A DNA stretch of 64,000 bases from positions 51,274,001 to 51,338,000 of the forward strand of contig OX597817.1 of the NCBI GenBank assembly GCA_951406725.2, given 5' to 3'. Shown one piece after another: positions 10,251 to 63,328 of this stretch. The notes beneath the pieces were generated by a model. It searched no databases. It was not told where the DNA came from and was given only the letters and a program-made list of their open reading frames with translations. The DNA is from Octopus vulgaris (taxonomy: Eukaryota). How positions within the stretch are numbered: the first letter of the stretch is position 1; each line of letters starts with the position of its first letter. A program made the position numbers and the translations under genes.

Positions 10251-12454
10251 CCAACATGAACTTCTAACTTGTCTCTTGGGGTCTCTGGGTGAGACTTGGA
10301 GCCAGCTTGTGCAAATGTAAAGCAAAAGTCAAACAATAATAATAATGATAATAATAATAATGAAGAAGAAGAAAACAAATGCAACTTATCAGAATATTGA
10401 TGATATAGGCTTAAGTTATGTATAAGTCATTTTACTTTTATTATTTATGACTAATAAAAGTAAGATATGTTGTTTGTATAAATATTTCGCAGTATGAAAC
10501 ATTGTAGATTCCACATCGCCAAGATCGAGCAAACTGGTACCTAATCAAAAAAGAGTTGCAGATAAAACATGAAACCAATAAATCGCTTCAACAGAAAGAA
10601 GTAACCATACTGCGTCATAGTTTATAGTAACGTTATTTTGCCAAGAACGAGACTAACCCACCAGTGCATAACTTTGATGTATAAATACATTTGAAGCTAA
10701 GAGTGTAGCTTATTTACAAAAATAACATTTTTAAAACCATGTAGATATATAACATATAAAGAACTTAAAAGAGAAAATGTGAAATGATAATAAATACAAC
10801 GAACAAAGAAAACATACATTACTATGCTAGCAAGTAAGGAAAGTCAACACAAAACAACTAAGCAGGAAAAAATAATACCTTTGAGTATTTACATCAATAG
10901 GGAAAATATACAATGTAAGCAAATGGGAGGGAGGCATGAATCACAATAAAATCCTACCCCAGCATACCTTTACCTACAAAGACATTTAAATATAGATATA
11001 TTCTAAGCAAAGAAATATCAAATGCCAGGAATTTCAGTATGATTATTAATATAAATATGGAAATATTCCAATAATTAAAATTGATATGTCGTCTTATGGA
11101 CTAGCGAAATAAGCCTTCTAAATTTATATAAAGAGTACATATAAAAAAATACTTTGACTGCAATAGAAAGACTGGAAGTTAAAATACGTAAGTATTAATG
11201 TTACCAAAGTAATTCGGCAAAATTATCGAAGTATTTTATTGATAAAGGGAAGAATGCCTCTCCTCGAAATTTCCTTTCAAAGGAATATCGAACAACAGGC
11301 AAAGAACATAGGAATCCTTCACAAAAAGAAAGATTAGCAACAAAAGGAAATTATTCTGAATCTTTAATACACTCCAACAAAAAGAACAAAAGCAGGAAGA
11401 ACGAGAACAATAAACCATCAAAGACAGAAATAGGGCAGTGAAAGTAAACAGGCAGCCACGAAAAGAATATGGTTTCTAAAAGACACAAAAGCATAAATTT
11501 CGTTACATTCGATTAGATCGTTTATAAGTTTTTACCGGTATTTTAGTTCAGAAACAAACAAAAAAATAAATAAAAAAACCGTAAGTCGATTAAGGTTGTG
11601 TAGAAATATATTAAGAAACGGTTCACTACGAAGTACTTCCAGCAAAGAATCTAGAGGAGGGAGTCGATAAAATTCATAAAATATGGAGGAAAACGGAAAC
11701 AATGAAGGCCGTACACAAGATTCATGCACAAAATGTACTCTCTTCCTTCTCTCCTCCACACTTCCATCTTTCTCCCTCGCCATTTTTATTCACAACACAC
11801 ACATACAAACACACATTCTCTTATTCTCTCTCCCTTCTCTTCCTATCTTTCTCTTTCTCCCCCTCTATTTCTCTCTCTCTCTCCCTGTGGTTCACTTTAA
11901 TTGTCTGCATGTTTCTTTTACCACGAGGACTTCTACCGTACAATGATTGAGATGAGAACTAAAATTGAAGCTCTGTTCTTTGCTCTTATGACATCAGAAA
12001 ATATTTTGCATGTGTGTGGTGTGTATATGTGTATGTGTTTTTTGTGTGTATCTATAGATAGATAGATTGATAGATAGATAGAATGAGAGAGAGAGAGAAA
12101 TGGAGCATTAATAAACAATGAGAAGTGGCTCATTGGGGTTTTATGGTGATTATGTAATGTAATTAAATAATGACTTTAAAACACCAATGATCTGCTTCTC
12201 ATTGTTAATTATTGCTCCATTTCTTTTCTTTTCTATATATATTAAACCATGGTTTTACCTTTAAATTACCTCCTACCGTATACCTTATAACAAAGACCAT
12301 ACACACTTAGGTAATACACCAGGAGTGCCTACAGATACGTCTATCCCTTAGATGGTTGCATAACCTCTAACCTATATCTTATACTATATATATATATAAT
12401 CATTTCTATATATATTCATTATATATATATTATGTTTATGTGTGTTAACATATA

Positions 12455-12771: not shown

Positions 12772-12927
12772 GCTTGAAGCATTATTGGTGCAGAAGTAGA
12801 AAAGGAAGAAAAAAACAAAAAAATAAGGAAATCTTCTAAAATGGAGGAAATTTTTGTTCATGGATTCATTATAGCAGTCCGCTATAATGAATCCATAAAC
12901 AGATATAAAACATCCAAGGGTATAATT

Positions 12928-13021
12928 TTCACTCTGAAGATATTATGCTTAGGTCATATAAATATAAATTTAATATTTACTTAATATTTACTGGATACTA
13001 ATTGAAACAGCTGTAAGGGAA
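12928..13021 (+). ncRNA. Hammerhead-like motif with large stem II
   Basis: TTCACT-CTGAAGA-(63 nt)-GAAAC-AGCT-GTA-AGGGAA. Stem I is 5/6 paired; palindromic ACAGCTGT. Confidence 0.62.
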
Positions 13022-15024
13022 GATGATTAATTTGCTGTTCATAACAAACAATTATTAACTTCCCAATCTCTATTTTTTTTTCTTCTTATACATGCAATAT
13101 AGGTATGTATATCACCCACAGTTGCCCTTAAGCTGCATAAATATGATATCTGTTATGTATATAACGCGCGTTTCTATACTAAACACCTAATATCCATTCG
13201 TACCTCACGGATATGAACAAAGTACGTTTTAGACGAAGTGTTCTGTTTGAATTCATTTCTAAACGGAAGATGTCACCCGTAATTGAAAACAATAAGGGGT
13301 ATAATAAATTCTAGGCTTTTTTTTTTAATTCCTCCGAATTACATTCTTAAAATACTACAAAAATATCAAATAAAATTTAAGGAATCCTGGAGAAAGATTT
13401 TGCTGTTAATTAAGGCAGAGTCCATCATCTTCAAAGCATGTATTCCCCTCCGGTTCTCAGTCTTCCCTAGTTCGTGTTGAACATCAATCGCATTCATGTA
13501 ATGAAATTGGAATGGAGTAAAATACCCTTAGGCTCTGATATTATTCTTTTGATCAAATAATATAACATTTGGATCGTATTTCCCTCAAGGTTGTGGCATG
13601 TCTTGGTGAGATAATCCTGTTTTCTTGGTAATTGAGATAAAGCAGCATTTGTTTGATGTCAGGTAGATTAAAAATAATACTTAGTGGCTAAACAGTGAAA
13701 GGTTTGTTGACACCGTTTCTGTTGACAAATACATCGGAAAGATGAATGGAGAGAGTAGCCTCTCATTTGCCTTACTGGTACAGGCGTGGCTCTGAGGTAC
13801 CAAGTTTACTTCCTAACCACAAGGTTCCTAGTTCAGTCCCACTGCATGGAACATTCGACAAGTGTCTTCTACTAAAAGACTAAAGCCACGTGCATGCATT
13901 TCGTAGCCAGAAACTGGAAGTCCATCGTATTCGTGTGTGTATACGAGTGTATACGTATGAGATATGAAACACACACACACACACATATATAATAATCACG
14001 TTGGACCTCTAAACATCTACATGTTTCTTTGTTCATTCTCTCTCGGTTTATTACCTCTTGTTACTTTCAGAAACATAGAAGTCTTCATTTTCCCGAGCGT
14101 CAGACTAATACACTTGCTTGTTCTTCGTATTTTGTTTTTCTATAATTTTCAACTACACACACACAGACAGAGTCACACACATACAGGCAGACACACACAC
14201 ACATATATATAGGTGTGTTCGTTTACTCCCCTACCACCGCTCCACAAACGGCGTCAGTTGTTCAAGCTAGCCCGTTCGGCAAAATTAACGGGTAGAATAA
14301 GCACCAGGTTTTAAAACTGCAATCGCTGGGATCGATTCCTTCGACCAAAACTCTTTCAATCGATGCCATAGCATGGCTGTAGTCAAATGACGGAAACAAG
14401 TAAAATACAAGAGAAAATTACATGCTGAATTTCCATAGTTAACCCATAAATGTAATCATGTTATATGGTATGCATTAAAGGAAAATATAAAATTTACGAT
14501 CCAGTCTAATGCATGCTTTTATGTTGTTGATATTTTATCGCTTATTATAAATCATGTAAATGGTTTATAATAAGAGATAAGATATCAGCAATATGGAAGT
14601 ATATATGAGATTTATACGACATAAAGCAAGCAGTTTCCTATGTAAAATCGCTTTTAGTATTTATGATATTCATGGCGGTGAAATGACAGAATCGTTAGCA
14701 TCTCCGACAAAATGGCTAACGGTGTTTTGTCCGTCAACATGTTCTGCGTTCAAATTCCGCGCAGTCGACTCTGCAATTTACCCTCACAGAGCTGATAACA
14801 TGAACACAAGTTGAACACTTGGGTCGATTTTCCCCTTGCTTCAAATTCCAGAGCCAAAATTTTAAGTCATTATATGGGGCCAGTCGATTAGATCGGCCCC
14901 AGTGTGCAACTGGTACTTAATTTATCAACGCCGAAAAAATGAAAGGCAGAGTCGACGTCGGTGTAATTTGAACTCAGAACGATACATATGTATATATATA
15001 CATACATACATATACTGATATATA

Positions 15025-25699: not shown

Positions 25700-25883
25700 T
25701 CGACCTCTAGCCACTAAAGCTTTTTTTATTCTCTCCATGTTTATTTCCTCGTCCTCCTATCTGTTGAAGAGCGTAGGCTCGAAACGTAAAAGACTTTCTC
25801 AACTTCCCGAGCGTTATGCTAATACACTTGTTTGTTGTTTATACACCTGTCTTTGTCTTTTGTTTCATGGTAAATTGCAACTA
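25700..25883 (+). mobile_element. Short PLE-end-like repeat with a CTGTnGA...GAAACGT hammerhead-like motif
   Basis: Shares GAAGAGCGTAGGCTCGAAACGT and its 3' flank with 52906-53092 and 57256-57407; ends at (TA)n. Confidence 0.6.
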
Positions 25884-26354: not shown

Positions 26355-28358
26355 TATTGTACGGTATACAGAAAACTCGCTATTACTGAGAAAATTGCGA
26401 AGAAAATAATTTCAAGCTTTTTCAAGCAGTTCCAACTATGGTTAAGACAGCCTCTCATAATTACCGTATAAACGTTCCATAAGTTTATGACGAATAGCTA
26501 AGATTAAACCCGATTGGTTACGCTTACGATAAAAGTAGTCAAGTCATACCCGTCGTGTGTAAATTTATTTGTAGTAACATTGCCGAGAATGCCAATGTCT
26601 TGTGATTAGTGGTGTGTGTTACGAATACAAAGGATTATATTCTCTAATATATACTTGAAGGCGACAAACGTACCGCGGCATTAACACTCCGAACTAAATG
26701 CTTCGGCGCATTTCTTCCGAATTTACATTTTCAGTTGAAATACCACCGCGGCTGATTTTACCTTTCATCCTCCTGGAGTCGAGAAAATAACTACCAGTTG
26801 AGCAGTGGGGGCAATGTAATTAACTTACCAACACGCACGAAAGTGCGGGTCTTGAGTCAAAATGTAGAACAAATACATCCTTCCAGTTTATAAAAAGAAT
26901 GGTGTTATTTAGGAGACAATTTGGGAGTATATTATTTTATTGTTGTCCCTTACTTATTTCAGCCAAAGGTCTGCGGTCATTTTAGGATTTAGTCCAATAA
27001 ATCGACTCTGGCAATTATTTTTAAGTCTATAACTTATCCTATCGGTATCTTTTGAATTATATCCCTCATAACTTTTTCTGTCTTTTTCCGACCACTTGTG
27101 TTCATTCAACCATCATTTACGTTAAACGCATCTTGCTGACGTATCTGACTCGAACAATGGTGACGTAAATTCAATAAGCCGCCCAGGAAACAAGGAGTAG
27201 CTATATTGCATATGGCTATTTATATATTTCTTCCTAATAACGTCTTAATTTTTTAACTGACCGAGAATTTGTTGAAATTCATACCACACATACGTGGTTC
27301 AAGCCGGTTCCTAACAAAGCAACAAGACTTTTGGGGTTAAGAGACTTCCCATGGTTTGTAATTGTGTGGTCGGGTTCAGTTATTTTGCTCTTTTTTCCGT
27401 GAAACCGAGTCTTTCTAGGCCTTTGTGGAAATTTATTGGCACATAACCTTATGCACCTGGGATATTAGGTACAAATAAGAATTTATAGTCTGGGTACAAG
27501 ATATGTAATTTCGACATAAATTCTCTGCAAATGTTCCCTTTTTCCTGGACCTTTGTATGTATGAACATGTGTATGTGTGTATGTATGTATGTATGTAAGT
27601 ATGTATGTATTATGTATATATATATATGTATGTATGTATGTATGAATGTATGTTTGTACGTGTGTATGTATGTACGTGTTTATGTACGTATGTATGTTTG
27701 TACGTATGTATGTACGTTTTGTATGTATTTATGCATGTATGCATGTATGTACGTAGATACATCTCTTATATCTTTAATTATTTTACGTCTCCATGCAAAG
27801 AAGCAGCTGGATTCGAACAATGATACGAAATCCATTGCTGGAATATAGAAAATGAAGTCAAATTCGCAATTTGAATTTCCTAAACTCTTGCATATCTTTA
27901 CTATTCCGTTTACAGATTATATTTGTAATACGCGTGTTCGCCGGTCGATTTACTTCTCTGGAGATCAGAGCTTCTCCAGTTTCTCATTCAGGCATTTACT
28001 CCCAAATCAAAGGGCACCGATTACTATTGTTCTAAAACGGAAATTCATAACCTGGATAGAGAGGTTTAATGTTTCGAAGCGGTTATCTGAACTGTTTCTC
28101 CTGTGATTTCCAATGAGATATTCATATCAACAGGGTTGTTGAAGTCTAAGACAGTACATACAGGAACTTTTACTATACGTTTCCCGCCACCCACCGACAA
28201 AACGATATCAGGTTTGTACTTGGTAGAAGATTGATGGAATGTTCCACAAATATATCTTGTATTCCTGTCTATATATTTTGCCTATTTATTTTTAAACATT
28301 TATGAGAATGTATACATATGCAAAGACTGTGTATTACATACATACGTACCAGAATTTC

Positions 28359-32963: not shown

Positions 32964-33037
32964 TAGCCAGTATGGGGCTCGAACCCACGACATTTGTGTT
33001 ATTAACACGATGCTCCAACCAGCTGAGCTAACCGGCC
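32964..33037 (-). tRNA. tRNA-Ile(AAT) gene or young pseudogene
   Basis: GGCCGGTTAGCTCAGCTGGTTGGAGCATCGTGTTAATAACACAAATGTCGTGGGTTCGAGCCCCATACTGGCTA folds as a cloverleaf with one C-A mismatch in the anticodon stem. T4 and T7 Pol III terminators follow directly. Confidence 0.82.
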
Positions 33038-41776: not shown

Positions 41777-41971
41777 TCTCCTCTGTGATTTTGGTTAATA
41801 GAATAACTATACAAATGAATCCTTTGAATTTAACTAAATTCTATATTTTTATGCAGCTGAGGATTGCTCTACATGTTAAAATTGATGTTATATTTGCATT
41901 GTTCAATTAAATGGAGTCGCACGAAACGATCGTACTGCATTAACTCTGGATATCATTGTTGCTTATTTTGA

Positions 41972-41973
<2 letters not shown>
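41777..41973 (+). mobile_element. About 200-bp hammerhead-bearing non-autonomous element or solo PLE end
   Basis: Homologous to 51294-51480 (minus). Both end in ...GCTTATTTTGAT directly followed by (AT)n. Confidence 0.7.
41851..41940 (+). ncRNA. Type-I hammerhead ribozyme with enlarged stem II
   Basis: ATGCAG-CTGAGGA-(59 nt, TTGCTC...GAGTCGCAC)-GAAAC-GATC-GTA-CTGCAT. Canonical core, perfect 6-bp stem I and palindromic ACGATCGT. Confidence 0.8.
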
Positions 41974-42037
<64 letters not shown>

Positions 42038-42038
<1 letters not shown>

Positions 42039-43837
42039 ACCAACTGAAGGATACAACCTTCTATTGTGAAATACCCGCAAATATAGACCACCACATCATG
42101 AAAAAGATCAACAACCTGATTTCAACACACCACAACTCACTTACGGATAATGAAAAAGACTACATCACCAATTTTGAACCAAAACCCAGCAACTTCTACG
42201 GCTTACCAAAAATACACAAATCAAAAAACATTCAACAGGCAGTAAAAGAACAAGAAAGTGAGTACATAAAATTATTACATCCAAAAGACCTAAAACTTAG
42301 ACCTATTATAGCTGGTCCAGCATGCCCTACACACCGTCTAAGCAATTTTATTGACATTGTTTTGAAACCACTATGTACTTACATACCAAGTTTCATCAGG
42401 GATGACATCGACTTCCTGTCCCATCTTCCCAAAACAACAGAAACAAATTCAGTTTTACTAAGTTTTGATGTGGTAAGCCTCTACACCAATATTCCACACG
42501 ATTTAGGAATAAAGGCGATTAAATACTGGTTAGAAAAACATAGAGAAGTGATTCCCAGCAGATTCACAGTGCCATTTATATTAGACACAGTCAAACTTAT
42601 TCTAGAAAATAACACATTCTTCTTCAATGGAAAGAATTACATCCAAATTAGAGGCACGGCGATGGGAACGAGGTTTGCTCCCGTTTACGCCAACTCTGTA
42701 ATGGGATACTTAGAAGAACAACTCTACCAAGAGGTGGAGGTAAACTATGGCACTGGATTTAGAAAGTATATTGAAAAGGCATGGAAGAGATACCTAGACG
42801 ACTGTTTCATAATCTGGACAGAATCTCTAAATACTCTGGAAGAGTTCAATATCCTCCTGAACAACCTACACCCATCTCTCAAATTTACAAAGGAGATGAG
42901 TAGTACCAAATTACCATTCCTGGATATAATGGTAATTAAAAAAGACACCATCATCACCACAGATATATACTATAAACACACAGACACACATCAATACCTA
43001 AATTTTAAGTCGTGCCATCCACCACATACAAAACGTAACATCCCATACTGCCTAGCCAGAAGAATTTGTACTATTGTAGAAGATGCAAATATCAGGAACA
43101 AACGCCTAATAGAACTAAGAGAATTTTTGCTCAAACAAAAATACCCATCTCTACTTATAGAAAATGGCATACAGCGGGCTATAAAAATACCTATACAACA
43201 ACTTAGGACAACCCAAGGAAGAGGAAAACAAGAACAAGTCATACCATTCATAGTGACACACAACCCATGTCACCAGAATATCTTCAACATTGCCAAAGCA
43301 AACCTACCAATCATTGCCCAAAGTAATGAATTAAAAGACATAATCAAGGATCGAGCTATGGTGCTTAGTAAAAGACAGCCTAAAAACTTGAAAACATTAC
43401 TAACAAAGGCAAAATTTGACCTCAGCAACAAAGACCAAACATTCACGGTATCTAAATGCAATGATAGCCGATGTGGCACATGCCAATTCATACATACCGG
43501 TCAATATATAAACACAAAAACCGGGAAAATATTCACAAACGCGAATATGAACTGCAAAAGCAGAAATTTAATTTACTGCATCAAATGCCCAAATTGTGAA
43601 GAAATATATGTAGGTCAGACGGGAAACGCACTATTAGAACGCTCACGTGTACACCGGCAACAGATTAGAGACCCAGAGGTCCGTCAGATACCTTTGAGTA
43701 ACCACCTAGCAACATGTGGTCGGAAAATATATATAATATTTCCATTCTACAAATTACACAGCCCAAGTGAAATCGAGAGGAAAATCAGAGAAAAGAATTT
43801 TATTGATAAATTCGAACCCAAGCTAAATAAGCAATAA
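42038..43837 (+). CDS. Penelope-like element (Neptune-type) RT + GIY-YIG endonuclease ORF, 5'-truncated
   Basis: Frame is open from DQLKDTTFY (42038). Motifs: FYGLPKIHK, LRPII, SFDVVSLYTNIP, GTAMGT, RYLDDCF, LPFLD, a Cys linker CNDSRCGTC and GIY-YIG LIYCIKCPNCEEIYVGQT. No stops over about 600 codons. Confidence 0.95.
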
Positions 43838-44154
43838 TAATAATACTTAGAGGTATTACTTCCACTGCTACGACCATGACCACTAACAACAACAACAATA
43901 CTAAAGGTGATCAAGACGAAGATAGCAGGAAAATTATCTTATTTAGGGTTAAAAGTTCTATTGCCACCACCATCACCACTAGCAACAATAATTAAGGTGC
44001 TGACAATGATGATGATGACAATTGAAATATAAAAATATAAAAATCTCTGACAAAGGATATTTACAACATTTCTAAAAATAACCCAACAATTGCTGCTTCG
44101 GCCAGGGTCAAGATACAGGACTCTTGACCTGTCCAACAAAGCGTGATGCCTAAA

Positions 44155-44296
44155 CCAATCAGCTCAACCAACCAATCAGCTTAAGTAATTGAGTGATACT
44201 ACACACTGATTGGTCAGAATACAGTTTGCAAAACCTAGCACTCTGGAGCCTACCCAGCTGTATTTATAGCACAGAATCACTCATCTTGCTACAGTC
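44155..44296 (+). promoter_or_regulatory. Putative Pol II promoter in the PLE pseudo-LTR
   Basis: CCAAT at 44155 and 44172, ATTGG at 44209, TATTTATA at 44261 and an Inr-like CAGTC about 31 nt further downstream. Confidence 0.6.
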
Positions 44297-44331
44297 AAAA
44301 ATTGTGAAGCATGACTGTCAACACTACTACA

Positions 44332-44376
44332 TGAACCCGAAGATTGCAGAATTCAATGCATGAAAGTACTAGTTCA
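44332..44376 (+). ncRNA. Minimal type-I hammerhead ribozyme (U4C core variant) in the PLE 3' end
   Basis: TGAAC-CCGAAGA-T[TGCA GAATTCAA TGCA]T-GAAA-GTAC-TA-GTTCA. Perfect 5-bp stem I, 4-bp stem II and palindromic AGTACT stem III. Confidence 0.78.
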
Positions 44377-44553
44377 ATCAGAATGAATATTTAACATTCT
44401 ACTATTTCATTTTATTTTATTCAATTATAATATATTATCTTATAATATATCATTATAAGATTGTAAATAAAACATGAAAATCAGACAAGGTTGGAATTCT
44501 TTTTATTAATATATTCTTCTATACACAATCACACACACCCATATATATATATA

Positions 44554-44586
<33 letters not shown>

Positions 44587-44638
44587 TTATATCTGGAAAA
44601 CTTATACACTGATGGAATACACGAGTATTTATTATTAA

Positions 44639-44742
44639 TCGCAATAGTTGTTTCGATGCATCTAGCATCGATCTCTCACGGGTGGGACACTCAACAACTG
44701 GTTCAGGAGCATCCGGCGGTGCAGATGTATCTTGTCGGGTGA
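44639..44742 (-). ncRNA. Degenerate large-stem-II hammerhead in a short element between (TA)n arrays
   Basis: Minus strand reads TCAC-CCGACAA-GATACATCT...AGATGCATC-GAAAC-AACT-ATT-GCGA. The stem II base is 8/9 paired; the core is decayed. Confidence 0.5.
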
Positions 44743-44832
44743 CAAATAAATACCACTCGTTAAAATAACAGATCCGCGATTCAACTTCTCGTTTTGTAGA
44801 AAGAAAATCACCCCGAAAGATGTATATATGCA

Positions 44833-44918: not shown

Positions 44919-45977
44919 ATTGATTTGATTTTGATTTTTCCAGTTTCAGCTTATGAGCTGTGGCCATGCTGGGGCACCGCCATTTGGTGTTGCTACTTGG
45001 TTTCACTTCATGAAGGCTTTCTAGCAGCTGCTATTTGGTGCATGAGAGAGTTCGATGCAGCTGCCCTCATCTGCCCCTCCTGCCGTGAAGTTGGTTCATC
45101 TGGGACACCTGACAGGAAGATATCCAGCTTCATTTTAAAGACATCTGTATCCACCCCATGCAGGTCTCTCAGGTTCTTCGGGAGGATATTGAAGAGCTGT
45201 GAGCCTCGGAAGCCCAGGCTATCACAGAATCTTGTCCTACATCTTGATTGCAAGTTTGGAGTCCTAGGCACCACGCAGTGGCGCCCAGTTCTGGTATTTG
45301 CGTAACTCTCGATGCCAAAGTTCAGGACACTTCCCTCCAGGATCTTCCAGATGTATATTATGGCATATCTTTCCCGCCTACGCTCCAGGGAATATAATTT
45401 TAATTTCCTGAGTCTTTCCCAGTAGCTTACATTCTGCATAGAGGCTATCTTCTTCGTGTAGCTACGTTGGATCGCCTCGAGCTCTGTGATCAACTTGACA
45501 CTGGATGGTGACCATAACTGAGAGCAGTAGTCAAAGTGGCTTAGGACAAGTGTCCTCCAGAGGACCATCATGGTTTCTTGTTCTCTTGTTCTAAAGGTTC
45601 TGAGGATCCATCCGGCCAGTCGTCTACATTTCATTGCCAATTTAGCAACATGTACACGAAAGGTCGCGTCATCACTCGTGTAAATACCTAGGTCATGCAC
45701 TGATTGTGCCTCTGGGATTGCAATCCCTCCGGGTCCAGTGTATTCATTGGGTATTGCATTTAGTTTTGCATGCTGATAGTATAGAGCTTGAAACTTTTCA
45801 GCATTGAACTGCATGCTATTCTTTTCGGCCCACTTGTATATTTTGTCTAGCTCACATTGCAGGTGTTTAGTGTCCTCAGGGTTCTGTATTGCCTGTGAAA
45901 CTTTTGTATCATCTGTATAACTTGTGATCGTGGCTCTCTGCGTGGCTGAGGGCATGTCTGAGAGGGCCATTATGAAC
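44915..45977 (-). mobile_element. CR1/L2-group LINE 3' fragment (RT C-terminus, 3' UTR, (ATCAA)-like tail)
   Basis: 323-aa open frame with YTDDTK, WAEKNSMQFNAEKF, YCSQLWSP and YWERL..L.LYSLERRRERY. Tail AAAATCAAAATCAAATCAATCAAA. 5'-truncated at a TA repeat. Confidence 0.9.
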
Positions 45978-46047
45978 ATATATGTATATATATGTATATA
46001 TATGTATATATATTAATATATATATACATATATATACATATATATAC

Positions 46048-51293: not shown

Positions 51294-51480
51294 TCAAAAT
51301 AAGCTACAAGGATATCCAGAGGTAATGCAGTATGATCGTTTCATGCGACTCCATTTGAACAATGCAATCATTACATCAATTTAAAATGTAGAGCAATCTT
51401 CAGCTGCACAAAGACATAGAATTTAATTAAATTTGAAGGACACATTAGTATAATTTTATCCAAAGTCTCCAAGAGGATAA
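51294..51480 (-). mobile_element. About 190-bp hammerhead-bearing element, same family as 41777-41973
   Basis: Aligns by eye along its whole length; the 3' end abuts (TA)n. Confidence 0.7.
51325..51409 (-). ncRNA. Second copy of the large-stem-II hammerhead (stem III G>A)
   Basis: Minus strand reads GTGCAG-CTGAAGA-TTGCTCTACA...ATGGAGTCGCAT-GAAAC-GATC-ATA-CTGCAT, homologous to 41851-41940. Confidence 0.72.
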
Positions 51481-51583
51481 GGAGATAGAGAAAAAAAACT
51501 TGTTTTACCAACATCATCACAGTTGTGACTGAAAAGTTTTCAAAGAAGACACTGCTTTTCAGTGATTAATTTCTCTTATTTAG

Positions 51584-51891
<308 letters not shown>

Positions 51892-52371
51892 TGAAACGCA
51901 GATGTATACATACATACATACATACACACATACATACATACACACACACATACATACATTCACACATACATACATACACACATTCAGACATACATACATA
52001 CATGCATACATACATACATTCACGCATACATACGTGCATACATACATACATGCATATATACATACATACATGCATATATACATACATACATACATTCACA
52101 CTTACATACATTCACACATACATACATTCACACATACATACATACATACATACATACATACATACATACATACATACATACATACATAACTAGATTTTGG
52201 TTAGAAACCGACTCTTTATTGACTAGAAAATTTGAAATAAATTTAAACAAGGACATTTCTTCGACTAAAAAGCGGTGCTCCAGCATGGCCGCACTCAAAT
52301 GACTGAAGCAAGTAAACGAATTAAAGAATATGTTTCTACACACACACATACATACACATATATATACACAC

Positions 52372-52406
<35 letters not shown>

Positions 52407-52460
52407 CGTATATATATATATGTATATGTATGTTCGTATGTATGTATGTATGTATGTATG

Positions 52461-52848
52461 GGCATCGCTGTTACACTTCCAGCAAGGAAGGGTCTTCCTT
52501 TGATGCTGACATGCAATGTCTGTGCAAGACCCTGCCTCAGTAAAGCTGAACTCAAGAGTCATCTTCGTAGTCATAAAGCGAGACAGATGAGTGACAACCT
52601 GGCAACTGGTGGTGGTGTAACACACCATACTAATCATAACTGTCGGGCATGTGAAGGAGAGTGTAATTCGGCAGGAGGACTTAAACGGCATGCAAAGGTA
52701 CATGAAGCTCAGTTACATCTACAGCCATCTATTACCGGTAAAGGTTTTAGCTGCCAATTTTGTACAAGACATTTTAGATTTTTAGCTGGGCTAAAGTAAC
52801 AATTAAGCTTCGTCAATGGCCATACTCGATAACGAGGAGGCAGCCATA
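52461..52848 (+). mobile_element. RTE-like LINE 3' end encoding three C2H2-type fingers, within (TATG)n
   Basis: CNVCARPCLSKAELKSHLRSH, CRACEGECNSAGGLKRHAKVH and CQFCTRHFRFLAGLK*, then a short UTR and (ATGT)n. No TGEKP linkers. Confidence 0.6.
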
Positions 52849-52905: not shown

Positions 52906-53092
52906 TAGGGGAGAATTCACGAAAAAAAAAACAAATGACGAAGACAGGTGGTATAGAAAACAAACAGATGTATTATTATAACGCTCAGGAATAGAAAAAG
53001 TCTTTTACGTTTCGAGCCTACGCTCTTCTACAGAAAGGAACACAGAAAGAAACGAGGATGGAAAAAGATGTGTGTAGTGGCTACCGATCTAC
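52906..53092 (-). mobile_element. Same short repeat family as 25700-25883
   Basis: Minus strand reads CTTT-CTGTAGA-AGAGCGTAGGCTC-GAAAC-GTA-AAAG. Flanked by TA repeats. Confidence 0.6.
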
Positions 53093-57255: not shown

Positions 57256-57407
57256 AGGGAGAATTCACTAAGAAAATAAAAAGACGAAGACAGGTGGTGT
57301 AGAAAACAAACAGATGTATTACTATAACGCTCGAGAATTGAAAATGTCTTTAACGTTTCGAGCCTACGCTCTTCCACATATAGGAACACAGAAACAAACA
57401 AGGAGAG
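57256..57407 (-). mobile_element. Same short repeat family as 25700-25883
   Basis: Near-identical to 52906-53060, with (TA)n on both sides. Confidence 0.6.
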
Positions 57408-61637: not shown

Positions 61638-62891
61638 TGGGCGAGAGAGAGAGGGGGGATATATAGATAGACAGATAGATAGATAAATATAGATATAGAT
61701 ATATATTATACATATATGTATCTATGTATGTCTATATACATATATGCGTTGTCATAATACCTACTTATAAATTTATACGCATGTATAGGTAGCTAAGAAT
61801 CTAGCTAGATACAGTTTACATGTTTACAAGAGAGAATAAAGAGCGAAGGCAACAACAAAAGAAGGTAAAAGAAGCGACTATTGTTAATTAACACGAAATA
61901 TGATATGCAAGACAAAAACAGTAAATCGACAATGATTCCCATCGGTGAATCCTATCAATTCAGCTTCTAATTTGCAGTTGTTAACACATTGAGTTAATTA
62001 TAATCTTGCTTTGAATCTTTCTCGTTTTCACTTAGCAATGTAAAATTGAAGATGATCATATAAATATTCATAAAGCGTTACGCTGGGAGATCTGTTGTTC
62101 TACTTATTGTTTACACTAATTGCATTTTATTGCCTGAAACGCCACGAAACGTAATCAAAAATTTGATATTCTATATCACACATACCATTTATTCACTGTA
62201 CAATTTCGATAATTAAAAATTGGTATAATTACATTTAAAGATATCTGCATATTATTAGAAATATTAGTACATTCTTTTCATTGGTAATAGTTTAAATCTT
62301 TTGTAAAAGATTACATAACGGTTGAATAATTCACAAAATTTGATTACTTAGTATTTCAGTAAGTTTCATATAGCAATTACAAGGATGGTGAGATGACAAA
62401 ATCTTTAGCACGCTAAGCAAAAACGATTAGCGGGTCTTCTCCTGTCTTTACGTTCTGAGATCAAATTTCGCTGTGGTCAACTTTGCTTTTAACTATAAAT
62501 TCCAGCAGATCAATGCCTTGTGAGTAAATTTGGTAGACGAAAGCTGAATAAAGTCAGTCTTATGTGTCTGTGTGTGTGTGTTTGTTTGTGTCTGTATTTC
62601 TATCTCTCTTTATTGATATATACATATATATACATATATAGATAGAGAAATGGATGGATCTAGACACCAGACGCACAAACGCATGTTTGTGTATGTGTGG
62701 GTTTTTGTATGTGTGTGTGTGTGTGGGTCTATGTGTGTGTGTGAATAGTCATATATAAAAGTGTGCTGAGAAGGGAACTAACAGATTAACACCGACTGAT
62801 TCACTAGAGTTGAAGACATCAACTTTGTCCTGTATACAGGCCCAGTTCTTTCCTCTTCCCTCTTCACTTTTATTTAATTTTACGCATTTGT

Positions 62892-63007
62892 ATTAACTCT
62901 GATGAAGCTCCATTTACTGGATCGAATGTGTCATGAAGATGACAAATTTTCGGAATGTCTTTCGTAAGCAACAAGCAGCATTGCAAGCGGAAACGACCGT
63001 AAGAAAT
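62892..63007 (+). ncRNA. Degenerate large-stem-II hammerhead
   Basis: CTGATGA-AGCT...(long insert)...AGCG-GAAAC-GACC-GTA-AG. Stem I is poor. Confidence 0.45.
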
Positions 63008-63328
63008 GTTACGTCATGTTTTGTATTAAAAAATAATCAACCGATGTTGGTCAATTTGTTTGTTGATCAAAACTTCTCCATATTCTGATTATTTAAATTT
63101 GATTCCTGATAAACTTTTGCTAGCTAATTCTGTTGTTACCTGTACCCTATGAGCATAGTGTGCCTATATATATATATGCAAATGCATCACATGTATATAG
63201 CTTGCTGTCATTTGCGATTTACGTAATGTGAGGAACGGCCACAAATCGATACAATTTCAGTGATAGAATCCGTAAAAACAGTAGGGTAAAAAGTAATGTA
63301 GACAATAAGCAAAAGAAAACTACATGGA

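What the first reader, a model, noticed from the sequence alone, without database searches (positions are those of the whole stretch)
41777..41973. Hammerhead with canonical core and about 59-nt expanded stem II in a 200-bp repeat next to an open PLE
Seen: perfect ATGCAG/CTGCAT stem I, CTGAGGA and GAAAC-GATC-GTA. A second diverged copy (51294-51480, minus) keeps the core and stem ends and varies at N7 and in the stem II loop, the pattern expected from selection on the ribozyme. Its sequence does not match the 3' end of the adjacent PLE, so it is a separate family in the same (TA)n. Inference: an atypical large-domain-II hammerhead class, also at 12928, 44639 and 62892, that standard short-stem descriptors would miss.
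Basis: partly seen in the sequence, partly recalled or inferred. Interest (0 to 1): 0.72.

Follow-up and report, generated by a model that had tools for sequence, protein, structure and literature searches.

The report
Long-armed hammerhead at Penelope-type element end
A short, abundant repeat that is likely the broken-off tail of a Penelope-type jumping element carries a hammerhead motif (a predicted self-cutting RNA) with an intact core and a side arm about three times the usual length, a new variant of a known ribozyme whose cutting is untested.

Summary
The motif is real: 6-bp stem I, intact core, 59-nt domain II, palindromic stem III and GUA site at 41851-41940. It was the only strict hit in the window; 40 shuffles gave none. 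It belongs to a high-copy, multi-subfamily repeat. The family closes stem II with U·U rather than G-C. U·U plus a palindromic stem III also marks hammerheads in the 3' UTRs of the neighbour's PLE clade (4 of 7 relatives), and U·U closure is already published. The unusual feature is the 54-63-nt domain II: none over 20 nt was found in 97 PLE loci. A sequence-unrelated motif at 12934 has the same design. 62899 is borderline and 44639 has no intact core. The repeat does not match the neighbouring, 5'-truncated PLE, which has its own short hammerhead at 44337. Selection on the core is not shown by conservation alone (0 of 11 versus 12 of 121 positions polymorphic, P=0.34), though subfamily changes tend to keep the stems. 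Best reading: 5'-truncated 3' ends of a PLE-type element, likely cleaving as dimers, with a tolerated expansion of domain II. Coding versus non-coding master is unresolved and cleavage is untested.

The parts
41784..41972 (+). Repeat copy 1 (family-matching part); 5' end abuts a cut SINE-like repeat, 3' end runs into (TA)n
   Evidence: contig cover from 41784 to 41972 in 4 runs; junction with the SINE-like repeat compared with 3 other copies
41851..41856 (+). Stem I, 5' strand
41857..41863 (+). Core C3-A9 (N7 at 41861 varies G/A)
   Evidence: N7 other letter 47% of depth in X11
41864..41922 (+). Long domain II, 59 nt: U·C (family U·U) closing mismatch, 3-bp base helix 41865-67/41919-21, then a predicted irregular rod or three-way junction
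41923..41934 (+). G12-A15.1, palindromic stem III (41926-41933) and cleavage triplet; predicted cut between 41934 and 41935
   Evidence: self-duplex -10.0 kcal/mol
41935..41940 (+). Stem I, 3' strand
41974..42036 (.). (TA)n microsatellite between the repeat and the neighbouring PLE
51294..51516 (-). Repeat copy 2; core starts at 51403, domain II 54 nt, private stem III break at 51333; deep family cover to about 51493, a few contigs to about 51570
42038..43837 (+). Neighbouring PLE ORF (RT, Zn-finger-like linker, GIY-YIG with CCHH), 5'-truncated; a different family, given as context
44332..44378 (+). The neighbour's own short hammerhead (U·U-closed, 18-nt domain II, U4C core change in this copy)
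12926..13023 (+). Sequence-unrelated motif of the same design: intact core at 12934, U·U closure, 63-nt domain II, 6-nt palindrome, stem I with one mismatch
   Evidence: (0 hits in 300 shuffles, descriptor loosened after seeing it)

Best explanation
This repeat carries a type I hammerhead motif with an intact core and a 54-63-nt domain II, and is likely the 5'-truncated 3' end of a Penelope-like retroelement family whose ribozyme is predicted to cut as a dimer. Shown: the motif, the family, its variant pattern, the (TA)n at the 3' end of both window copies, inverted joints in other copies, and the same core-proximal design in 3' UTRs of the neighbour's PLE clade. Inferred: a PLE RT/endonuclease nicks (TA)n, starts reverse transcription about 35 nt (or further) downstream of the ribozyme and usually stops soon after passing it, leaving short copies like these two. 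Two RNA copies would pair through the 8-nt palindrome to make a stable stem III and cut after GUA, slowly and probably with protein help. The long domain II is likely a tolerated expansion on a part of the fold that points away from the core; the 3' strand of stem II looks duplicated (41889-41899 versus 41910-41922). That the master element is coding is the least certain step.
For: Descriptor and shuffles and Rfam alignment. U·U closure occurs in 4 of 7 hammerhead-bearing relatives in the neighbour's clade (support 0.989), in the neighbour itself, and in 0 of 17 more distant PLE loci; L002 has the same letters as the family majority on both sides of the base of stem II. Summed contig depth in X11 falls from about 1.1 million over the ribozyme to 115,000 at 40-50 nt upstream, 6,600 at about 85 nt and about 400 beyond, the shape of 5' truncation. 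Four opposite-strand joints in X11 and an inverted, 5'-cut copy in a 412-nt contig of X8 and X18 match the PLE inversion described in PMC8557442 Fig. 2. Two kinds of 3' end, (TA)n at 41972 or 25-54 more letters (loose ends), resemble the PLE tail (PMC11167929). Subfamily loose ends keep the core and mostly the stems: in X17 a different 6-nt palindrome in stem III, and other letters at 41865 and 41921 that could still pair (unphased). Domain II length varies: 54, 58, 59, about 63 and about 40 nt. U·U-closed hammerheads cleave (PMC3088659 passages; axolotl HHR_Amex2, PMC7229834 passages).
Against: No ORF was linked to the family. None of 97 PLE loci had a domain II of 25-150 nt. The depth fall could partly reflect subfamily divergence from the copy used as reference, and summed contig depth is not a copy number. 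Core conservation is not significant (P=0.34). The X8 loose-end consensus at the same place as the X17 palindrome shows a G12 change and a non-palindromic stem III. The best-covered contig in the three runs guessed to be RNA carries changes that weaken the base of stem II (51396, 51344). With flanks, the hammerhead fold is 6-8 kcal/mol above the free minimum in both copies. The tree used a query-anchored alignment and only 24 of 97 loci.
Confidence: 0.5

Rival explanations
1. Same ribozyme and same PLE enzyme, but the master is a non-coding retrozyme-like unit of 270 nt or more, and the window copies are solo fragments of it.
For: No ORF linked. The family continues 25-54 letters past 41972 and at least 110-165 nt upstream of the core. 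Retrozymes are PLE-derived and often occur as monomers (10.64898/2026.07.22.740005 passages). Earlier unchecked notes report a 485-495-nt long-stem-II retrozyme in (TA)n in this genome.
Against: No head-to-tail joint was listed in either laying, although short contigs and a unit longer than the stretch would hide one. Depth is very uneven along the unit. Two sequence look-ups found no match to the earlier retrozyme notes.
Confidence: 0.35
2. Domain II is a selected functional module (a protein-binding or switching arm, or a partner for a loop 1 contact), not a tolerated expansion. This is compatible with either kind of master element.
For: The majority reading folds into a 21-bp rod closed exactly at the hammerhead base helix as its free minimum (-11.7 kcal/mol). 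The hairpin 41870-74/41885-89 is kept, by eye, in the length variants seen. An unrelated motif of the same length class sits at 12934. A 4-5-bp duplex between loop 1 and 41913-41917 is possible (-5.2 and -3.8 kcal/mol).
Against: The rod is only z -1.5 (39 of 500 shuffles fold as well). Copy 2 prefers a different fold. 8 of 59 positions are polymorphic, and 14-nt and larger deletions exist. The 12934 insert barely folds (-0.1 kcal/mol when constrained).
Confidence: 0.15
3. The motif is a dead relic: the long insert, the 3-bp base helix and the U·U closure prevent folding, and the family spreads without cleavage.
For: Alternative folds are more stable. Core conservation is not significant. In an anole PLE, ribozyme mutants did not affect insertion in vitro (PMC11167929, parts 1-2).
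Against: No listed variant at any of 11 conserved core positions (3% and 5% thresholds, 6 different runs) while N7 varies 13-47% in X11. Diverged subfamilies mostly keep the core while changing letters next to it.
Confidence: 0.2
4. The repeat is the upstream pseudo-LTR of the neighbouring PLE (a partial tandem).
For: It lies on the same strand, 65 nt before the open frame; partial tandems are normal for PLEs (L004 has the same hammerhead at 58 and 3757).
Against: No sequence match to the neighbour's 3' UTR. The neighbour has its own different hammerhead and is 5'-truncated at the (TA)n. Copy 2 has no PLE ORF beside it.
Confidence: 0.03

Closest known systems
Type I hammerheads in PLE pseudo-LTRs with palindromic helix III (Cervera & de la Pena 2014, PMC4209133; main text parts 1-2 of 4, supplement parts 1-2 of 3)
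   Same: Type I order, intact core, palindromic stem III for dimer cleavage, mostly solo dispersed copies; Fig. S3 has U·U-closed examples (Hydra, D. willistoni)
   Different: Domain II is 54-63 nt here; by eye none of the 56 Fig. S3 rows exceeds about 24 nt. Most PLE min-HHRs have an extra nucleotide plus G10.1-C11.1. No ORF link is shown here.
Hammerheads of the neighbour's C-terminal-EN PLE clade (Neptune/Nematis-type linker per PMC8557442 passages; loci L002, L006, L007, L081 and window 44337)
   Same: U·U closure, short base helix, palindromic stem III, located in the 3' UTR
   Different: Their domain II is 9-18 nt and the inner palindrome is 4 nt (6 nt here); no DNA similarity to the query
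Metazoan non-LTR retrozymes, e.g. axolotl HHR_Amex2 (PMC7229834 passages; 10.64898/2026.07.22.740005 part 1 of 5 and passages)
   Same: Non-coding-looking repeat with a type I hammerhead, U·U at the base of helix II, dimer-assisted cleavage, PLE link
   Different: No tandem unit or circle shown here; long domain II
Rfam Hammerhead_1 (RF00163)
   Same: Stem I, core and stem III align over 41851-41940
   Different: 20.6 bits, below the gathering score of 34; domain II not aligned

Membership tests
Type I hammerhead ribozyme | Core CUGANGA / GAAA / NUH in type I order | tested here: met
   no core variant listed
Type I hammerhead ribozyme | Three helices around the core | tested here: met
   stem I 6 bp, stem II base 3 bp, stem III 2 bp as monomer or 8 bp as dimer; not the free minimum with flanks
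Type I hammerhead ribozyme | Canonical G10.1-C11.1 pair (typical, not obligatory) | tested here: not met
   U·C in copy 1, U·U in the family; U·U is a published active natural variant (PMC3088659, PMC7229834 passages)
Type I hammerhead ribozyme | Self-cleavage at NUH | not testable with these tools
   only contigs were available; no raw reads
PLE pseudo-LTR hammerhead | Palindromic stem III for dimer formation | tested here: met
   41926-41933; majority restores it in copy 2; self-duplex -10.0 kcal/mol
PLE pseudo-LTR hammerhead | Lies downstream of an RT/GIY-YIG ORF of its own family | tested here: inconclusive
   no ORF within 165 nt upstream in copy 2; family not followed further; no genome held
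PLE pseudo-LTR hammerhead | Insertion marks: microsatellite target, 5' truncation, inverted 5'-cut copies, tail | tested here: met
   (TA)n after 2 of 2 window copies; depth gradient; 4 opposite-strand joints and one inverted copy; the tail is inferred only
Non-LTR retrozyme | Head-to-tail tandem units each with a hammerhead | tested here: inconclusive
   both window copies are solo; no go-back joint listed, but contigs are short
Non-LTR retrozyme | Monomeric linear and circular RNAs | not testable with these tools
   no raw RNA reads
Rearranged (non-circularly permuted) hammerheads | Strand order outside types I-III | tested here: not met
   the query reads in plain type I order

The most novel reading that the evidence does not exclude
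Several unrelated PLE-mobilised families in this genome have independently grown a 55-65-nt structured arm on stem II that acts as a natural control module, a docking site for the element's RT or a partner for loop 1, switching a weak U·U-closed dimer hammerhead on or off. Such long-armed forms would be a widespread hammerhead variant missed by descriptors that cap the stem II spacer near 20 nt.
Probability: 0.12. Interest if true: 0.65.

Novelty: new variant of a known kind. Interest (0 to 1): 0.33.

Why it matters
It shows that PLE-type hammerheads can carry a domain II three times the usual size in a high-copy family, so published descriptors (spacer 7-17 nt for the core search in PMC8557442) and Rfam cut-offs undercount them. 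The subfamilies and length variants form a natural series for asking whether PLE hammerheads cut as dimers, need protein, or matter for transposition, which is still open (PMC4209133, PMC11167929). If the arm is only tolerated, the finding is an annotation gain rather than new biology.

Tried and rejected
No whole genome is held, so no genome-wide consensus or phased covariation test was possible. Run search: no RNA holder listed; runs marked RNA are guesses and all are contigs, so expression and cut ends were not assessed. Pattern scans found nothing in metagenome contigs or viral contigs; the PLE protein had no relative in viral contigs. blastn of both copies against 97 PLE loci gave no meaningful match. 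I considered whether the reading frame upstream of copy 2 (ending near 51573) was a PLE C-terminus; I rejected it because 51585-51637 is a separate repeat found twice more in the window and with its own loose ends. A splice-acceptor or coding-exon reading of 41845-41890 was dropped by eye (stops in the frames). The whole-window Rfam run showed only 150 of 283 matches, none a hammerhead, so narrow runs were done: a hit for copy 1, none for copy 2, none for L002, L006, L007, L081. No covariance model was built because only two full copies were in hand. Sequence look-ups in earlier findings returned nothing, nor did the word and near look-ups. Lünse et al. 2017 on PLE hammerhead dimers was not held; I saw only its title and a summary in PMC6765202, and it may list long-stem variants. 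bioRxiv supplements were closed, and most of the PMC8557442 supplement was only term-searched. Searches for a natural 50-60-nt domain II found none; the 'long helix II' in PMC13725137 means 6-8 bp.

Full report
Observation. The window is microsatellite-rich animal DNA (octopus-like by my recall of its repeats and by earlier notes; no call names the organism, and no genome is held). At 41851-41940 there is a type I hammerhead: 6-bp stem I, core at 41857-41863, 59 nt, GAAA, an 8-nt palindrome forming stem III, and GUA. It was the only perfect-core hit of a structure descriptor allowing up to 130 nt in domain II; 40 block-wise dinucleotide shuffles gave 1 loose and 0 strict hits. Rfam Hammerhead_1 aligns to the same span at 20.6 bits, below gathering. 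Copy 2 (51294-51516, minus) is 86% identical. It has a 54-nt insert, a G·U at the outer stem I pair, and a change at 16.2 that breaks stem III and makes AUA.

The family. I laid public contigs on both copies (6 different runs of one coded organism; contigs only). 2,903 and 4,485 contigs of run X11 fit. Summed depth is about 1.1-1.3 million over the ribozyme against 15 for a contig spanning copy 2's own upstream junction. This is not a copy number, but it implies a high-copy repeat (inference). Majority letters give U at 11.1 (over 99%), restore GUA and the palindrome in copy 2 (91-96%), and give a 58-nt domain II. No variant was listed at the 11 conserved core positions; N7 varies 13-47% in X11. 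That pattern is not significant: 0 of 11 core versus 12 of 121 other positions polymorphic, P=0.34, and the 3' flank is 0 of 32. Better, though unphased, hints come from subfamilies. The outer stem I pair appears as G·U, A-U and possibly G-C. Positions 41865 and 41921 show letters that could pair as U-A, A-U or G·U. In X17, 4 contigs show a different 6-nt palindrome in stem III. Against this, the X8 consensus at that place has a G12 change and no palindrome, and the best-covered contig in X8, X17 and X18 weakens the base of stem II.

Domain II. Copy 1 folds no better than shuffles (z +0.39). Copy 2 forms a three-way junction on the 3-bp base helix (z -1.37). The majority reading forms an irregular 21-bp rod closed by the same base helix as its free minimum (z -1.48; 39 of 500 shuffles as good). 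Lengths of 54, 58, 59, about 63 and about 40 nt occur; one short form also lacks the cleavage site. The end of the insert resembles an internal stretch, suggesting a duplication (by eye). With flanks the hammerhead fold lies 6-8 kcal/mol above the minimum in both copies; the palindrome adds -10.0 kcal/mol as a dimer duplex.

Context. The neighbour ORF 42038-43837 has RT and GIY-YIG domains, a Zn-finger-like linker and CCHH, the layout given for Neptune/Nematis in PMC8557442 (passages). It lacks at least 129 N-terminal residues. Its 3' UTR has its own hammerhead at 44332-44378, U·U-closed, with an 18-nt domain II and a U4C change, and does not match the query. Of 97 PLE loci fetched (many end before the 3' UTR; L088-L090 are one contig), 26 gave a hammerhead with domain II of 8-20 nt, and none had 25-150 nt. 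In a tree of 24 of these loci plus the neighbour (query-anchored alignment; L089 and L090 dropped as duplicates; loci without a hammerhead left out), the neighbour's clade (support 0.989) holds all 4 U·U-closed cases and 3 G-C cases. The 17 others are of the extra-nucleotide type. So the query's core-proximal design is that of this PLE lineage.

Insertion marks. Both window copies end at the same point before (TA)n. Other copies run on for 25-54 letters (loose ends). Depth falls over 1000-fold within 100 nt upstream of the core. Four opposite-strand joints and one inverted 5'-cut copy were listed, and no head-to-tail joint. These fit PLE-type copying (PMC8557442 Fig. 2 legend; the tail and internal RT starts in PMC11167929 parts 1-2). 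They do not tell a coding from a non-coding master.

12934 has an intact core, U·U closure, a 4-bp base helix, 63 nt, a perfect 6-nt palindrome, and stem I with one mismatch. A descriptor that admits it, loosened after I saw it, gave 0 hits in 300 shuffles. It shares no sequence with the query and has no second copy in the window. 62899 needs the loosest settings (14 hits in 300 shuffles). At 44639 I found no intact core on either strand.

Mechanism. Shown: motif, family, variants, insertion marks, design shared with a PLE clade. Inferred: PLE-primed insertion into (TA)n with early termination; dimer cleavage through the palindrome; low activity, possibly protein-assisted, as reported for PLE hammerheads (PMC4209133 parts 1-2; PMC11167929); a tolerated long arm. 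That stem II accepts large engineered inserts is recalled, not from a call.

Novelty. U·U closure is published (PMC3088659 and PMC7229834 passages; Hydra and D. willistoni rows in PMC4209133 Fig. S3). A natural 55-65-nt domain II in a PLE-type hammerhead was not found in my eight searches. PMC8557442 does note half-cores 35-50 nt apart in some Naiads, and Lünse et al. 2017 could not be read. Earlier unchecked notes report long-stem-II hammerheads elsewhere in this genome; I could not match them by sequence. Verdict: real, a new variant of a known kind, interest 0.33.

Noticed in passing
window 42038-44545 (+): 5'-truncated Neptune/Nematis-type PLE with an open 599-aa frame and its own short U·U-closed hammerhead at 44332-44378 carrying U4C; L077 shows the same U4C core.
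   Followed up: yes
window 12855-13023 (+): Second long-domain-II hammerhead design at 12934, with a long inverted repeat (12855-12901) just upstream; single copy in the window.
   Followed up: partly
window 62880-63015 (+): Intact core halves 84 nt apart with a near-palindromic stem III but a weak stem I; near chance level under a loosened descriptor.
   Followed up: partly
window 44576-44800: Insert between (TA)n runs whose ends pair with each other (44621-44760 minus folds at z -2.9); it has GAAAC and a hairpin on the minus strand but no intact first core half.
   Followed up: partly
window 52906-53085 (-), also 57257-57404 and 25708-25865: A three-copy repeat; the 53033 copy lies between (TA)n runs and has a short extra-nucleotide min-HHR with an A6U change.
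   Followed up: partly
runs X8, X17, X18 on window 51314-51516: One family copy with an inverted 5'-cut partner has depth 157-197 in three runs guessed to be RNA, while most of its private variants are under 1% of depth in X11; possibly a copy inside a host transcript, but run type is a guess.
   Followed up: no
window 32964-33037 (-): Rfam tRNA match above the gathering score (49.9 bits).
   Followed up: no
window 12085-12234: Long imperfect hairpin (sub-threshold MIR840 match on both strands).
   Followed up: no
window 51585-51637, 51838-51890, 27297-27330: A separate short repeat just upstream of copy 2.
   Followed up: partly
L004, L088-L090, L039, L062: PLE contigs, some filed inside bacterial MAGs: partial tandems with the same hammerhead 3,699 nt (L004) or 3,083 nt (L089) apart, and hammerheads on both strands (L039, L062).
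   Followed up: no
window 45008-46012 (-) and 52269-52799 (+): Open frames that look by eye like LINE RT C-terminal and zinc-finger pieces (recalled resemblance); no Pfam hit.
   Followed up: no
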